A stretch of DNA of 64,000 bases from the human T2T-CHM13v2.0 reference genome, Homo sapiens: assembly GCA_009914755.4 (NCBI GenBank), contig CP086569.2, positions 22,304,001 through 22,368,000 on the forward strand, read 5' to 3'. Below the pieces are notes generated by a model. The model saw nothing but the letters and a program-made list of their open reading frames with translations, had not been told where the DNA came from and ran no database searches. The position numbers were made by a program, and so were the translations under genes. This document shows positions 28,175 to 33,335 of the stretch, piece after piece. Numbering within the stretch: position 1 is the first letter of the stretch; the number at the start of each line of letters is the position of its first letter.

Positions 28175-29666
28175 GTTTATTCCTTCTGCAGAGTGTGGGT
28201 TACGCCCTGGCCATGTCCCCCTCTTTCCCAACTGCTGGGAGGCAGAAATTGGTGAATTTCCTTGGATAGTTTCCTGCAACTGTCTTTCTCTCATTTCTGT
28301 GCTGGCTCCATACTAAATGAACAGTGGATCCTTACCACAGCTAGATATGGCAATTTTATGTAAGTCTGAGTAATTCATTTCAAGATTAAGATATCATTAT
28401 AAAGCAATTACAACATTGAGATTGTTAATGAATATCTTTCTCTTTGTGTGTCTGTGTCTGTGTGTGAGAGAGAGACAGAGAGAAAGAGAGATGGAGACAG
28501 GGTCTTGCTCTATTGCCCAGGCTGCAGTGCAGTGGCATGATTCACATTAGCCTCAAATTCCCAAGATTAAGGGATTCTCCCACCTCTGCCTCCTCAGTGC
28601 ATGGGACCACAGGCATGCACCACTGATTCTGGCTAATTTTTTTTTCATTTTCTCCAGAAATAAAGTCTTATCATGTTGCCCACCTGGTCTCAAGTGATCC
28701 TCAAAAATAGTTTATAAAGTAGTATTTGTACTTTAGTGCTTACCTGGACTTCATCTGATTCACATGATGTACACGGCTTATTCCAATTGAAATGTGGAAA
28801 TAACAAGACTTTTTCTTGACTTTTTCCCCAGAAAAAGCTCAGGAGCACTGGCCCTGGTCCAAATGGGGCTTAGTCATCTTCTGGATTCTGCCTAAGCTTA
28901 GACAGTCAGGATTGACAGTGCCATACCCTACCTAGGTCCCAAGGGACCCCTGGATTGATCTTCCCAAGGCAGCCACAACATTTTCAACCCCTGGTCCTTC
29001 CTATATGCCCAGAGGAAAGTCTGAAATGGAGTAAATTTATACAACTATGTGACTATTAGCTACCTAGTTGGTCCCTTATGAGGGGTGACTAATGAAGAAG
29101 ACAATGGCATGGAAGAGTAGTATGTTGGGAAAAAGAATATTATCCTCTCTTGAATAATAAAAAAAAAATTCTTTCTCTTCACTATGTTTCTCTCTCTAAT
29201 CTAAGCTAAATTTGAAAACAAGCAAACAACCACAAACACCTCTTCTCTGTTTTTCATCAGAAAGTCCTGGAATTCAGCAAAAAAAGCACCCAAGCATTCT
29301 ACAAATCAGCACTTGTGTCCAATTTTGCCCCAAGTTGAATGAATTCACTTTTTGTATGGTGGCCAAGAAAGCTATGTGGGAGGCTGGCTGTAAGGTACAA
29401 ATTCATGGGGTGTGAATACCAGAGAGAAAGAGAAATATCTTGAACAACAAAAGTTACTTCTGGCCCTCCTTCAAAATATTGATTGATATCTTGTCTCTTG
29501 TTTTTTGCAGGGTGACTTGAGAGCACCTTTGGTGTGCCAGCGACAGCAAAAAGACACTTGGGTGCAAGTGGGAATCTTGTCACTTTTAGGAGCATTGCAC
29601 AAAGCCCTATGTCTTCAGCCAAGTGCACCCTTTCCTTTTCTGGCTCCAGGGAGTGACATGGCTTAG
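28175..29666 (+). pseudogene. Trypsin-like (S1 family) serine-protease-like gene, copy 1; catalytic His and Ser replaced, frameshift in the His exon
   Basis: Exon at ~28175-28359 (GTAAGT donor) translates to 'AECGLRPGHVPLFPNCWEAEIGEFPWIVS' and, after a +1 frameshift, 'HFCAGSILNEQWILTTARY' (compare canonical 'HFCGGSLI..WVLTAAHC'). Exon 29261-29394 translates to 'ILQISTCVQFCPKLNEFTFCMVAKKAMWEAGCK'. Exon 29511-29666 translates to 'GDLRAPLVCQRQQKDTWVQVGILSLLGALHKALCLQPS...*' (compare 'GDSGGPLVC...W.L.GIVSWG'). The Asp exon was not found; the region is occupied by a microsatellite and an Alu. Confidence 0.7.
28440..28710 (-). mobile_element. (GT/GA)n microsatellite (28440-28489) followed by an old Alu SINE in minus orientation
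   Basis: Reads 'gtgtgtctgtgtctgtgtgtgagagagagacagagagaaagagag' then 'gagacagggtcttgctctattgcccaggctgcagtgcagtggcatgat...cctcagtgcatgggaccacaggcatgcaccac'. Confidence 0.75.
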
Positions 29667-31205
29667 CCATGCACCCTGGAACCATCAAGGACACATGACT
29701 ACCTCTGCTTCCATGTCCCTTTCAGTCTCTACCTCTACAAATGCCTTGGCTTTTACCTCCACTGCCAGTGCTTTTCGGCCACACTTCATCTTTCTGCCAC
29801 AGCCTCAGAGTAAGGCTCAAAAACTTGGTAGGAGAAGTAAAGGAAGAAGAGAATGGAAATAGAAAAGAACAGAGGGAACAAGAGTGGAGAGAAAGCTCTT
29901 CCTGAGAAATGCTTTAAAAATTATTTTCCTTATGGCTCACATAGCCATTTCATACTTGATATATGATTCAATTTCCATAGTATCCCTACAGATTACTCTA
30001 TGCTATAGATCAAATAACATGATTATTATAATTATCTTAAATGCGTATTCTGATAGTAGATAAGTACAATGGATTGATCAATTTCTCATGGCAAAAGATG
30101 AATAGGGCTAACATTAAGACACACTCTCCTAATACAAAGACATTTCCTTACTACCACACAGTACCTGACACTTGCAATATAGTTATTTAAAATTAAGTTT
30201 CTTTTAAGTTGAAGATATTATGATGTTTGGAAACAGCATAGTAGTTGATAAGTAATGTGTTTTAGGTGCTAGTGTACTAGACTATATTACAGTGCGACTA
30301 TCAGGTTCCCCCTTCCCTTGGCTATCAGAAAACTTATCATAATATTAGCAATGTCTATTTCACGTTACTGTACTTCACCTATTTCCTTGGAAATTGAGTG
30401 ATCTCTTTTGGTCTCATGTATTAAATGTGCACTAAACTGCAGCTATTTTATAGCTACCACCTATTGCCAAAGCTACAGTAAATAATACTTTAAAACATAA
30501 AGGAAGCCATAATTATTTGCTTACATCCTCCAAAGTCTAATTCAAAGACAGCTACACTTAAGATCTTAGTTATACTTCTAATTTCATCTATACTTCCTTA
30601 CCCCTTCTATAGAGAGGTCATCTTCACCATTTTTATCTCTCTCTATATATATTAATGAGCATTGCTTCAACTCAGTTTTCTGAGGAATTCTAAAATAATT
30701 TTAAAAATATGAGCTCTTTCCTGAACCTCAAACTTGAATTTTCTATTTAAACTATTGGTTTGATATCTCACTAAGATTATAAGTTTAGGAAGATAAGCCC
30801 CCTCCAATTTAGAGACAGCTGCCTTATCTCCAAATTTTTCCTTATCTATCTAATATCTTCAAATCATTGTATTTTTTGTTGCCTACTTGCTTCAATGACT
30901 TCTAAGTAGCTAAAATCATAGATACACAAATATTGCAGTGGGAGAGAAAGCTGGAATGGCTCCCAATATTTTGATTAAAGAAATTTAAGCTAGGACATAA
31001 AGAAACTATGACCTTGGAAAGATAATAACAGGAATACTTTTTTTCAAGGAAAATGCATAAACACAATAGAGGTAGAACTTTGTCTTTGCTAGTCGTATTT
31101 AACAATGCTGACTCAGCAGAAATAGGAGGGATTTAAAACTTTAAAAATCATCTACAGTTGGCAATTCTATTCAATCAGCACAATTAGGCTTATTTTTCTC
31201 CTCAG

Positions 31206-33335
31206 CTTTGGCAGATCAGATTGCTCTGCAATATGCTATGCCTTGGCAAGCTGTGATCAACAGCCATGGAAGTGATTTCTGCTGTGGTTCCGTGGTTAGC
31301 CACTGTTGGATTCTCACAGCTGCCCACTGTGTCAGGAACATGTAAGTTTGTGCCTGCCTCTTCCCATACCCTATAATTCATTATCCCATAAATACATTGC
31401 TGAAGGTTTCTCTGTCCAAATTCACTTCTATCATGTATGACCATCTGGCATATACAGATAACATTTTTGGTTTAGGCTAAAAATAAATTGTCTCACTGTG
31501 TTTGGCTTACTAGTACCTCTGTTAATTAATTCCTCTCCTAATCCCATTGTCTGTGGGCTCTTTATTCATAGATTTCTGATTTCTCTGAAGATGAGCTAGG
31601 TACCTTGTGTATCATGACTCAAGAAATATGCTGGAAAGCCTGATGTAGGCTTAAGGTTCTGGTTTTCTAATGAATGTACTATAATAAATTTTTGCCTGTG
31701 CACACAGGAATCCTGAAAACACTGCTGTGATTCTGGGCCTGAGGCACACTGGCACACCACTGAGAATTGTGAAGGTGTCTATCATGCTATTTCATGAGAG
31801 ATTCCAGTTGTTGAGTAGGGTAGAAAGAAATGATCAGGCTTTGCTACTCCTCCAAGATGTCTAGACTCCCATTCGGCTCTTAGCACAGTTGGGCTATCTG
31901 AAAAACCTGAATAATTCAGAATGCTGGCTGTCTGGGCCTCAAATTATTATACCAGGTCAGCAGTTACTTTTCATATTAGGGTAGCAGCTCTAAAAAAGTG
32001 AGGTTCATATTTTTAATATTATGGTTCAAGGAATAACTATAATCACAATTGTATCCATTACTAATTATAAGATATTTAATCCATATAAGAGACCCACTAG
32101 GAGATTTGTTTTTGTTTTATAAGATGATGGTCCTGAAAATACCTTCACAGGATTTTAGATCTGAAAACAATAATATGAGGATCTTTCATAGTCAATTTCG
32201 TAAACCAAAATAGAGATGATTTGCTTTCTAACTCTTTGCTCACTTCAACACAAAGGAAAATGAAGCTTTTTTTGGTTTTATTTTGTTTTTAACCTCTTTA
32301 TGAAAATGAAGCTGAACTTGACTTGGAATTTGGAATTCCATAAGTAAAATTTACTTGTTAATTTTGAAGAGTGGCATTTAAAAAGTGATTAAAGAGTGAT
32401 GATGCTGTCCACAGTGACTCACTCCTATATTTCCAGCCTTTGGGAGCTTGAACTAGGAGAACCCTTTGGGCCCAGGAATGTGATAGCCACTTGGACAATA
32501 TAGCAAGACTTCATCACTAAACAGCAACAACAACAAATAGGCTGGTGTGGTGTTGCACACGTGTAGTCCCAGCTATGTGGGAGGCTGAGATAGGAAGATA
32601 GCTTGAGACTAGGAGATTGAGGCTGCAGTTTGTGAAGATTGTGCCAATGCACTCCAGTCTGGGTGACCAAGCAAGAACTTGTCTCAAGAAAAAAGCGGGG
32701 GGCTGGCGTGGTGGCTCACACCTGTAATCCCAGCACTTTGTAAGGCTGAGGCCAGTGAATCACCCGAAGTCAGAAGTTTGAGACCAGTCTGACCAACATG
32801 AGGAAACCCCATTTCTGCTAAAAATACAAAATTAGCCAGGAGTGGTGGTGTGTGCCTGTAATCCCAGCTACTCAGGAGGCTGAGGCAGGAGAATTGCTTG
32901 AAGCCAAGAGGCGGAGGTTGTAGTGAGCCGAGATCAGGCCACTGCATTCCAGACTGAGTGACAGAGCGAAACTCCATCTCAGCAACAACAACAAAGTCAC
33001 TAGAAAGAGAATGAAATTGATAAATGTGCAATGCAAAATGTTAATGGTGATAAAATAAACTGAATATCTTTGTATGTTATACATACAAGTTTAAAGTAAT
33101 GAGGAGACAGTGATAAGACAGATCATGGTCTTACCTCAATACTTAGTGATTAAATGTAACATATGTTCTTTAGAATAGTTATAGTCCATTTGTCTTTCTA
33201 GGAGAGACCGATGAGAATCCAGAAATGTTAAAGATGCAAGTGATGGAAGCTTCCAGCTGTGCCCACCTGTACCCTGGCATAGGCAGTTCCATTGTTTGCT
33301 TCATTACGCAGGCCAAAGACTCTAATGCAAATGTG
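31206..33335 (+). pseudogene. Trypsin-like (S1 family) serine-protease-like gene, copy 2; His and Asp motifs present, in-frame stop, degenerate Ser-motif region, no 'GDSGGP' exon found
   Basis: Exon 31206-31342 (GTAAGT donor) translates to 'ALQYAMPWQAVINSHGSDFCCGSVVSHCWILTAAHCVRN'. Exon 31708-31955 translates to 'NPENTAVILGLRHTGTPLRIVKVSIMLFHERFQLLSRVERNDQALLLLQDV*TPIRLLAQLGYLKNLNNSECWLSGPQIIIPGQ', with a TAG stop at 31862-31864. Exon 33202-33335 translates to 'ETDENPEMLKMQVMEASSCAHLYPGIGSSIVCFITQAKDSNANV', where canonical proteases have 'GG.DSCQGDSGGP'. Confidence 0.7.
32530..32995 (+). mobile_element. Alu right-monomer fragment (32530-32690) followed by a full AluS-type SINE (32700-32995)
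   Basis: Reads 'ggctggcgtggtggctcacacctgtaatcccagcactttg.aaggctgagg...' through '...gagccgagatcaggccactgcattccagactgagtgacagagcgaaactccatctc'. Confidence 0.9.

What the first reader, a model, noticed from the sequence alone, without database searches (positions are those of the whole stretch)
28175..33335. Two tandem trypsin-like serine-protease-like pseudogene copies with degenerate catalytic residues next to Y-type genes
Both copies have canonical protease exon architecture: a His exon ending at GTAAGT, an exon starting exactly at the 'GDSGGP' position, and AG/GT borders. Copy 1 reads 'TTARY' for 'TAAHC' (His to Arg), 'GDLRAP' for 'GDSGGP' (Ser to Leu), and has a +1 frameshift in the His exon. 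Copy 2 keeps 'TAAHC' and 'NDQALLLL' (Asp) but has a TAG stop in the middle exon, 'AKDSNAN' in place of the Ser motif, and no GDSGGP exon. Neither is an intact enzyme.
Speculative reading: a Y-linked protease-like gene (Prssly) is described in mouse, with an ortholog reported on the bull Y, and has been considered lost in primates. Given the RBMY/TSPY context, these exons could be relics of that gene. They could equally be ordinary PRSS pseudogene fragments duplicated onto this region.
Basis: partly seen in the sequence, partly recalled or inferred. Interest (0 to 1): 0.65.

Follow-up and report, generated by a model that had tools for sequence, protein, structure and literature searches.

The report
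Decayed PRSSLY gene on primate Y

Summary
The quoted motifs are all present. Both conceptual proteins pass Pfam Trypsin (44.8 and 62.1 bits; cutoff 20.6).

They are not two copies of a gene. They are the two tandem, 23%-identical protease-like domains of one gene, PRSSLY. The published chimpanzee PRSSLY-pseudogene model (Hughes et al. 2022, PMC9178871) maps colinearly onto window 15534-34231 at about 98% and contains both units. A further relic of the ORF start lies at 13535-13768.

Both "missing" exons exist: unit 1 middle exon at 28832-29084 and unit 2 last exon at 33867-34139.

Most of the "degenerate catalytic residues" are not decay. Intact orthologs also read TTARC and GDLGAP in unit 1, and (S/T)PGSAVMC instead of GDSGGP in unit 2.

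The real lesions:
- Unit 1 has three frameshifts and four stops.
- Unit 2 has a single TAG (31862-31864) in an otherwise full-length 301-codon frame.

RBMY-like and TSPY-like relics flank the locus. Contigs from human-labelled metagenomes match the window at 99.9%, so it is most likely human Y DNA.

The one mildly new point: this copy corresponds to the chimpanzee model and is about 13% diverged from the published human model. Humans therefore appear to carry at least two old lineages of this relic.

Verdict: already known, low interest.

The parts
13535..13768 (+). Relic of the start of the PRSSLY upstream ORF. It is the C-terminal tail of a third, N-terminal protease-like domain: VQQDSPVLSLFGRHWERVGLVS...YISWIRWPIK, with one frameshift.
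   Evidence: 84% nt identity over 234 nt to the start of the mouse lemur upstream ORF; tblastn E=1.9e-22 (frames).
15534..17266 (+). Giant upstream exon relic, first part. Trp-rich degenerate repeats; broken into ORFs of 120-174 aa.
   Evidence: Chimpanzee model nt 1-1305 maps here in three blocks at 92.8-98.6%. ORFs listed.
17496..23633 (-). HERV-K-like provirus inserted into the giant exon. LTR-like direct repeats at 17574-18103 and 23106-23631 are 85% identical.
   Evidence: Direct repeats. Pfam HERV-K_env_2 84.4 bits at 19773-20108 and zf-CCHC at 21040-21447, both on the minus strand. The C-type copy L004 joins window 17495 directly to 23634.
23634..27621 (+). Giant upstream exon relic, second part, ending ...AVIWKESLQAYWLFKTRVISHETT.
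   Evidence: Chimpanzee model nt 1306-3658 maps to 25144-27609 at 97.6-98.2%. L004 is colinear from 23634. Lemur tail alignment shows a 2-nt deletion and two stops. Frame shown.
28175..28359 (+). Unit 1 'His' exon (ancestral acceptor probably at 28192). Reads ECGLRPG...GEFPWIVS...HFCAGSILNEQWILTTARYGNF, with a 1-nt deletion near 28274.
   Evidence: (99.5% to chimp model).
28832..29084 (+). Lesions: TAA 28893-28895, TAG 28899-28901, 7-nt deletion near 28948, TAG 29057-29059.
29261..29394 (+). Unit 1 penultimate exon (ESPGIQQKKHPSILQISTCVQFCPKLNEFTFCMVAKKAMWEAGCK).
29511..29809 (+). Unit 1 last exon (GDLRAPLVC...FWLQGV) continuing in one exon into the inter-domain linker (MTTSASMSLSVSTS...PQPQ from 29695). 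Lesions: 2-nt deletion near 29578 and TAG 29587-29589.
   Evidence: The reading frame is continuous in intact orthologs P0008, P0010, P0011 and in the lemur cDNA.
31206..31341 (+). Unit 2 'His' exon (TLADQIALQYAMPWQAV...WILTAAHCVRNM).
31708..31955 (+). Unit 2 'Asp' exon (NDQALLLL). It holds the only disabling lesion of unit 2: TAG at 31862-31864, where orthologs have Gln.
   Evidence: The TAG is shared with the chimp model and absent from the human and rhesus models.
33202..33335 (+). Unit 2 penultimate exon (ETDENPEMLKMQVMEASSCAHLYPGIGSSIVCFITQAKDSNANV).
33867..34231 (+).
   Evidence: tblastn E=1e-30 to 1e-32. 98.1% to the chimp model..

Best explanation

In species where the gene is intact, such as mouse lemur, one long ORF encodes four parts in order:
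1. a giant, fast-evolving, Trp-rich repeat exon;
2. protease-like domain 1, whose catalytic His, Asp and Ser are naturally replaced by Arg, Gly/Pro and Leu;
3. a Ser/Thr-rich linker;
4. protease-like domain 2, with His and Asp kept and Ser replaced.

In this window:
- the giant exon is split by a HERV-K-like provirus and carries a frameshift and stops;
- domain 1 has three frameshifts and four stops;
- domain 2 has one stop.

No full-length protein can be made.

Shown here: homology, exon structure, lesions, colinearity with the published pseudogene model, and the flanking RBMY/TSPY relics.

Taken from the literature: primate copies are weakly transcribed. The intact gene is testis-specific and most strongly expressed in round spermatids. 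Mouse mutants are fertile, with a slight excess of daughters.

Inferred: this locus has no protein function today. At most it yields a low-level non-coding transcript.
For: - Pfam Trypsin hits for both units.
- Closest proteins are orthologs annotated 'serine protease 55-like' (unit 1, 67-81%) and '52-like' (unit 2, 74%) from bovids, carnivores and rodents, with no primate or autosomal PRSS hit.
- In P0008, P0010 and P0011 the last exon of unit 1 reads through into the linker that starts the unit 2 models.
- The lemur cDNA BK059441 has one continuous ORF through both units, with two Pfam Trypsin matches.
- The bull RT-PCR primer pair spans unit 1 to unit 2.
- The anole cDNA contains both units.
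- The chimpanzee pseudogene model maps colinearly at 92.8-99.5% per block (all but one block at least 96.3%), K2P 0.022.
- Lesion catalogue.
- Intact orthologs share TTARC, GDLGAP and SPGSAVMC.
- Relaxed constraint on the lineage to the window: dN/dS 0.27-0.29 (unit 1) and 0.64 (unit 2), against 0.06 and 0.15 between intact orthologs.
- The paper states that human, chimp and rhesus Y carry PRSSLY pseudogenes.
- RBMY-like and TSPY-like relics flank the locus.
Against: - The published human model is only 82-91% identical to the window. This is therefore not the exact human locus that was modelled, and I could not place the window on a reference assembly.
- Unit 2 is unexpectedly clean: 301 codons, exon lengths identical to takin, no indel and one stop. 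A residual role for it cannot be formally excluded.
- Transcription of this particular copy was not tested here.
Confidence: 0.93

Rival explanations
1. One reading: two tandemly duplicated pseudogene copies of one trypsin-like gene, each having lost different exons and catalytic residues.
For: Both units hit Pfam Trypsin and have similar four-exon layouts.
Against: - The units are 23% identical.
- Each has separate orthologs in other mammals.
- Both are present in one cDNA in lemur and anole, so the domain duplication dates at least to the common ancestor of lizards and mammals.
- No exon is missing.
- The catalytic substitutions are shared with intact orthologs.
Confidence: 0.03
2. An ordinary autosomal PRSS/TMPRSS/OVCH pseudogene fragment that was transposed onto this region.
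For: NCBI names the orthologs 'serine protease 55-like' and '52-like'. The paper names PRSS55 as the closest paralog.
Against: - No autosomal PRSS protein reached the hit lists, which would catch any near-identical sequence.
- The best solved proteases (factor XII, TMPRSS11D, granzyme M) match only weakly, E about 1e-10 to 1e-11.
- Introns, the giant upstream exon and the 3' UTR are all colinear with the PRSSLY model.
Confidence: 0.02
3. Unit 2 of this copy is not fully dead. The 301-codon frame starting at the ATG at 29695 might still give a product through stop-codon read-through, or through a TAG/CAG polymorphism at 31862, or it died only recently.
For: One stop, no indels, exon lengths identical to takin and intact splice sites. 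Nine lesions in total are distributed 8:1 between unit 1 and unit 2. My calculation gives a binomial P of about 0.01 for so few in unit 2.
Against: - dN/dS on the branch to the window is higher for unit 2 (0.64) than for unit 1 (about 0.28), and 0.46 between window and chimp on about 19 changes, so there is no sign of retained constraint.
- The TAG is shared with chimpanzee, so it is millions of years old.
- The ATG is GTG in lemur, so it is not a conserved start.
- The paper finds no usable ORF in any human transcript.
Confidence: 0.04

Closest known systems
[quoted passage not shown] 2022, BMC Biol 20:133, PMC9178871, Fig. S1 and Additional files 3 and 9)
   Same: Same gene relic. The chimpanzee model aligns end to end with window 15534-34231 at about 98% and shares the TAG in unit 2 and most unit 1 lesions. 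The exon set is the same: giant exon plus eight protease-region exons.
   Different: The window is about 2% from the chimp model and about 13% (K2P) from the published human model. Human-labelled contigs nevertheless match the window at 99.9%. It therefore appears to be a second human copy that the paper did not use as its human model. The window also carries a private 2-nt deletion in the giant-exon tail.
Intact PRSSLY of mouse lemur (BK059441), bull, dog, takin and others
   Same: Orthologous exons and splice sites. Same non-catalytic residues: TTAR(C), GDL(G)AP and (S/T)PGSAVMC. Unit 1 is 81% identical in nt to lemur and unit 2 is 74% identical in aa to takin.
   Different: Those genes have an open frame under strong constraint (dN/dS 0.06 for unit 1, 0.15 for unit 2). 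The window has 13 disabling lesions in the regions compared with lemur, plus further breaks in the upstream repeat exon and a proviral insertion.
PRSS55 and other testis-specific PRSS family members (the closest autosomal paralog according to Hughes et al.)
   Same: S1 (trypsin) fold family, Pfam PF00089. Testis-restricted expression is reported for the intact relatives.
   Different: PRSSLY has two to three tandem protease-like domains, a giant repeat exon and no complete catalytic triad. No near-identity to any autosomal PRSS was found. I did not align directly to PRSS55.

Membership tests
PRSSLY (orthologous group) | Sequence orthology to the conserved protease-like region of PRSSLY | tested here: met
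   Unit 1 is 81% nt identical to lemur PRSSLY. Unit 2 is 74% aa identical to takin and bear proteins. About 98% identical to the chimp PRSSLY pseudogene model over 5.4 kb.
PRSSLY (orthologous group) | Gene architecture: giant upstream ORF exon followed by the protease-like region in several small exons | tested here: met
   Relic of the giant exon at 13535-27621, interrupted by a provirus, followed by eight exons with AG/GT borders.
PRSSLY (orthologous group) | Y linkage in eutherians | tested here: inconclusive
   RBMY-like and TSPY-like relics flank the locus (probes recalled from memory, E down to 1e-64). The chimp model derives from Y sequence according to the paper. The window could not be mapped to an assembly with these tools.
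PRSSLY (functional gene) | Open reading frame through the protease-like region | tested here: not met
   Three frameshifts and four stops in unit 1, one stop in unit 2, and a frameshift plus two stops in the giant-exon tail.
S1 / trypsin-like peptidase domain (Pfam PF00089) | Domain-level sequence match above the curated threshold | tested here: met
   44.8 and 62.1 bits against a cutoff of 20.6 for the window units. 91.3 and 71.7 bits for the intact lemur units.
Active serine protease | Catalytic triad His57 / Asp102 / Ser195 | tested here: not met
   Alignment to bovine trypsin. Unit 1 has Arg, Gly/Pro and Leu at these positions. Unit 2 keeps His and Asp, but orthologs have Pro at the Ser195 position. 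The same holds in the intact orthologs examined, so the family is a pseudoprotease.
Recent tandem gene duplicates | High mutual similarity of the two units | tested here: not met
   23% identity by BLASTP between the two lemur units.

The most novel reading that the evidence does not exclude
PRSSLY was copied into at least three lineages on the ancestral catarrhine or hominoid Y while its conserved 3' half was still intact, and each copy then decayed independently.

The lineages are A (the published human model), B (this window and the chimp model) and C (contig L004). They are mutually about 13% diverged.

The human Y would still hold at least lineages A and B. The B copy keeps a unit 2 frame that is a single TAG away from full length.
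Probability: 0.3. Interest if true: 0.35.

Novelty: already known. Interest (0 to 1): 0.15.

Why it matters
PRSSLY is notable as the only reported ancestral X-Y gene that eutherians lost from the X and kept on the Y. Its death in anthropoid primates is part of the story of Y gene loss. This window adds nothing fundamental to that, because the pseudogene is published.

It does give two practical points:
1. Database models named 'serine protease 55-like' and 'serine protease 52-like' on mammalian Y contigs are very probably two halves of one PRSSLY gene.
2. The human Y seems to carry more than one old, diverged copy of the relic. Anyone dating the loss of PRSSLY in primates must compare orthologous copies, not the human and chimpanzee models as published.

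Tried and rejected
1. Unit 2 outlived unit 1 under selection. The lesion counts suggested this (8 against 1), but dN/dS did not support it (0.64 for unit 2 against about 0.28 for unit 1 on the branch to the window). I kept it only as a low-probability rival.
2. Species identification by exact ORF look-up. Two look-ups found nothing. Two others found contigs, which gave the human label indirectly.
3. A full-text search for the sample accessions found no paper.
4. JGI sample 3300032031 carries both a B-like contig (98.9%) and the C-type contig, but its host is unknown. I could not decide whether C is a human paralog or comes from another primate.
5. A first dN/dS run for unit 1 was out of register because lemur and bull differ by one codon. 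I corrected it.
6. Tandem Repeats Finder did not recover the degenerate repeat structure of the giant exon.
7. The N-terminal domain of the anole protein gave no match upstream of 13535, so earlier exons of the third domain were not found.
8. The rhesus distances (0.16-0.20) are inflated by an Alu-derived segment in that model, so I did not use them for dating.
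Full report
**1. The observation**

Concatenated, the two sets of exons both pass the curated Pfam Trypsin threshold: 44.8 and 62.1 bits against a cutoff of 20.6, with E=1.7e-11 and 9e-17. 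Against solved structures the better-preserved unit finds only distant relatives (factor XII, TMPRSS11D, granzyme M; E about 1e-10 to 1e-11). It is therefore not a recent copy of a well-known protease.

**2. What the two units are**

Six are proteins from takin, bears, Damara mole-rat, ground squirrel and African wild dog, named 'serine protease 52-like' or left unnamed. Four are near full length (276-303 aa) and two are shorter isoforms. They are 61-74% identical. The seventh is an unnamed 120-aa fragment.

The same search with unit 1 returned proteins named 'serine protease 55-like' from mole-rat and monk seal, plus unnamed ORF fragments, at 67-81% over the matched exons. No primate protein and no autosomal PRSS appeared in either list.

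The two units are only 23% identical to each other. They are therefore not recent duplicates.

Several lines of evidence show one gene with two tandem protease-like domains:
- In P0008, P0010 and P0011 the last exon of unit 1 continues in frame into '...MTTSAS...PQPQ', which the unit 2 models use as their first exon.
- The mouse lemur cDNA BK059441 (Hughes et al. 2022, Additional file 9) has one continuous ORF through both units. Pfam finds two separate Trypsin matches in it, 91.3 and 71.7 bits.
- In lemur the 'start' Met of the unit 2 models is GTG (Val), so it is not a conserved start codon.
- The bull RT-PCR primers in Additional file 1 lie in the unit 1 His exon and in the unit 2 last exon.
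- The anole cDNA also contains both units.

**3. Identity with a published pseudogene**

Hughes et al. 2022 (PMC9178871) describe PRSSLY as a broadly conserved Y-linked gene. [quoted passage not shown] Additional file 3 adds gorilla, orangutan and marmoset.

Their 5410-nt chimpanzee model maps colinearly onto the window in 13 blocks from 15534 to 34231. Each block is 92.8-99.5% identical, and all but one are at least 96.3%. K2P is 0.022 over the conserved 2.6 kb.

**4. Anatomy in the window**

A relic of the very start of the upstream ORF lies at 13535-13768. It is the tail of a third, N-terminal protease-like domain and is 84% identical in nt to lemur.

The giant repeat exon runs from 15534 to about 27621. 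A roughly 6.1-kb HERV-K-like provirus on the minus strand interrupts it at 17496-23633. The provirus has LTR-like repeats that are 85% identical, a Pfam HERV-K env match of 84 bits, and a Gag zinc knuckle. The diverged copy L004 lacks this insertion.

Eight exons follow, all with canonical AG/GT borders:

| Exon | Coordinates |
|---|---|
| Unit 1 'His' | 28175-28359 |
| Unit 1 middle ('Asp') | 28832-29084 |
| Unit 1 penultimate | 29261-29394 |
| Unit 1 last + linker | 29511-29809 |
| Unit 2 'His' | 31206-31341 |
| Unit 2 'Asp' | 31708-31955 |
| Unit 2 penultimate | 33202-33335 |
| Unit 2 last | 33867-34139 |

The 3' UTR continues to 34231.

**5. Decay versus ancestry**

I aligned the units to bovine trypsin, whose sequence I recalled from memory.
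- Intact lemur unit 1 has Arg at the His57 position (TTARC), no Asp at the Asp102 position (GPGLIF), and Leu at the Ser195 position (GDLGAP).
- Intact unit 2 keeps His (TAAHC) and Asp (NDLALLLL) but reads (S/T)PGSAVMC in place of GDSGGPxxC.

For unit 1, the same residues occur in all 14 complete sequences read in Additional file 5. For unit 2, the residues are seen in lemur, takin, two bears, mole-rat, ground squirrel, African wild dog and anole.

Unit 1 is nevertheless very strongly conserved between intact species (dN/dS about 0.06).

The true lesions relative to lemur and takin are these:

| Region | Lesions |
|---|---|
| Unit 1 | 1-nt deletion near 28274; TAA 28893-28895; TAG 28899-28901; 7-nt deletion near 28948; TAG 29057-29059; 2-nt deletion near 29578; TAG 29587-29589; plus an in-frame 3-nt deletion |
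| Giant-exon tail | 2-nt deletion and two stops |
| Unit 2 | a single TAG at 31862-31864 (Gln in orthologs) |

Unit 2 is otherwise a 301-codon frame whose five exon lengths equal those of takin, with no indels.

Constraint is relaxed on the lineage to the window. dN/dS is 0.27-0.29 for unit 1 and 0.64 for unit 2, against 0.06 and 0.15 between intact species.

**6. Context and source**

I used RBMY and TSPY protein sequences recalled from memory as probes. They find three relics:
- an RBMY-like relic on the minus strand at 1962-8508, with stops;
- a TSPY-like relic at 39421-41261 (+), with stops;
- a more decayed inverted TSPY-like relic at 38406-36264.

The last two account for the GC-rich block seen. 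A weak Pfam NAP hit supports the TSPY assignment.

Exact window ORFs recur on contigs from samples labelled human gut or human metagenome. L013 and L015 are 99.9% identical to the window over about 1 kb each. Several SRA-derived contigs (L003, L008, L009, L012, L014) are 100% identical.

From my own knowledge, human-chimpanzee Y divergence is a little under 2%. The roughly 2% distance to the chimp model fits that. Taken together, the window is most likely human Y DNA. This is an inference, because the tools cannot map it to an assembly.

**7. A side observation**

The published human model is only 82-91% identical to the window per block (K2P 0.126). Contig L005, from a human gut metagenome, matches that human model at 99.7-100%. 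Humans therefore appear to carry at least two old lineages of the relic:
- A, the published human model;
- B, this window, which corresponds to the chimp model.

A third type, C (L004), is about 13% from both. It comes from a JGI sample that also holds a B-like contig, L002, at 98.9%. The host of that sample is unknown.

Across the giant-exon tail and unit 1, lineages A, B, C and the rhesus model share only net in-frame indels. In unit 2, which L004 barely covers, no stop or frameshift is common to the window and chimp models, the human model and the rhesus model. Every frameshift and stop is therefore lineage-specific. dN/dS between A and B is about 0.7.

This is compatible with duplication of a still-intact 3' half followed by independent decay. 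A shared lesion further 5' in the giant exon, or in regulatory DNA, is not excluded.

**8. Verdict**

However:
- it is one gene with two domains, not two copies;
- nothing is missing;
- the catalytic 'degeneracy' is ancestral;
- the primate pseudogene has been in the literature since 2022.

It is already known and of low interest. There is a small residual point about multiple diverged copies on the human Y and about split gene models in other mammals.

Noticed in passing
window 15534-34231 compared with L005, L004, L002, L010 and L011: There are at least three deeply diverged lineages of the PRSSLY relic: A (published human model and L005), B (window and chimp model) and C (L004). They are mutually about 13% apart. 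Both A and B occur in human-labelled metagenome contigs. L010 (97%) and L011 (94%) suggest further variants or chimeric assemblies. No disabling lesion is shared between lineages in the conserved 3' region.
   Followed up: partly
window 17496-23633 (minus strand): A HERV-K-like provirus is inserted in the giant PRSSLY exon. Features: env match at 19773-20108, Gag zinc knuckle at 21040-21447, and LTR-like repeats at 17574-18103 and 23106-23631 that are 85% identical. It is absent from the C-type copy L004 and present in the B-like contig L002.
   Followed up: partly
window 1962-8508 (minus strand): An RBMY-like pseudogene with in-frame stops and apparently a single SRGY-type box. It was detected with an RBMY1 sequence recalled from memory (E down to 1e-30).
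   Followed up: partly
window 36264-41261: Two TSPY-like relics lie head to head in the GC-rich block. The better-preserved one is at 39421-41261 (+), about 70% identical to TSPY1 exon 1, with stops. A much more decayed one is at 38406-36264 (-).
   Followed up: partly
P0001-P0006 versus P0008 and P0009; L001: Database gene models named 'serine protease 52-like' (about 301 aa, starting MTTSAS) and 'serine protease 55-like' on Y-type contigs of other mammals look like two halves of one PRSSLY gene that annotation has split. The unit 1 last exon runs into the unit 2 'first exon', and lemur has GTG at the supposed start codon.
   Followed up: partly
window 28470-28700; rhesus model nt 3741-3908: The Alu in the intron between the first two unit 1 exons corresponds to a segment that the published rhesus model includes as an exon (it matches window 28481-28639). 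The rhesus model lacks the unit 1 middle exon.
   Followed up: no
window 33876-33878 (ESVSSGSV): At the position aligned to trypsin Ser195, intact orthologs have Pro, but the window and the chimp model have Ser. This is probably a neutral change in a dead gene with no functional meaning.
   Followed up: no
window 13535-13768; anole cDNA BK059517, 5' end: PRSSLY seems to have a third, N-terminal protease-like domain. Anole has EAPWIVNIF...WWVLTAANC..., and lemur and the window keep its C-terminal tail. The protein therefore resembles a multi-domain 'polyserase', whereas the paper speaks of one identifiable domain.
   Followed up: partly
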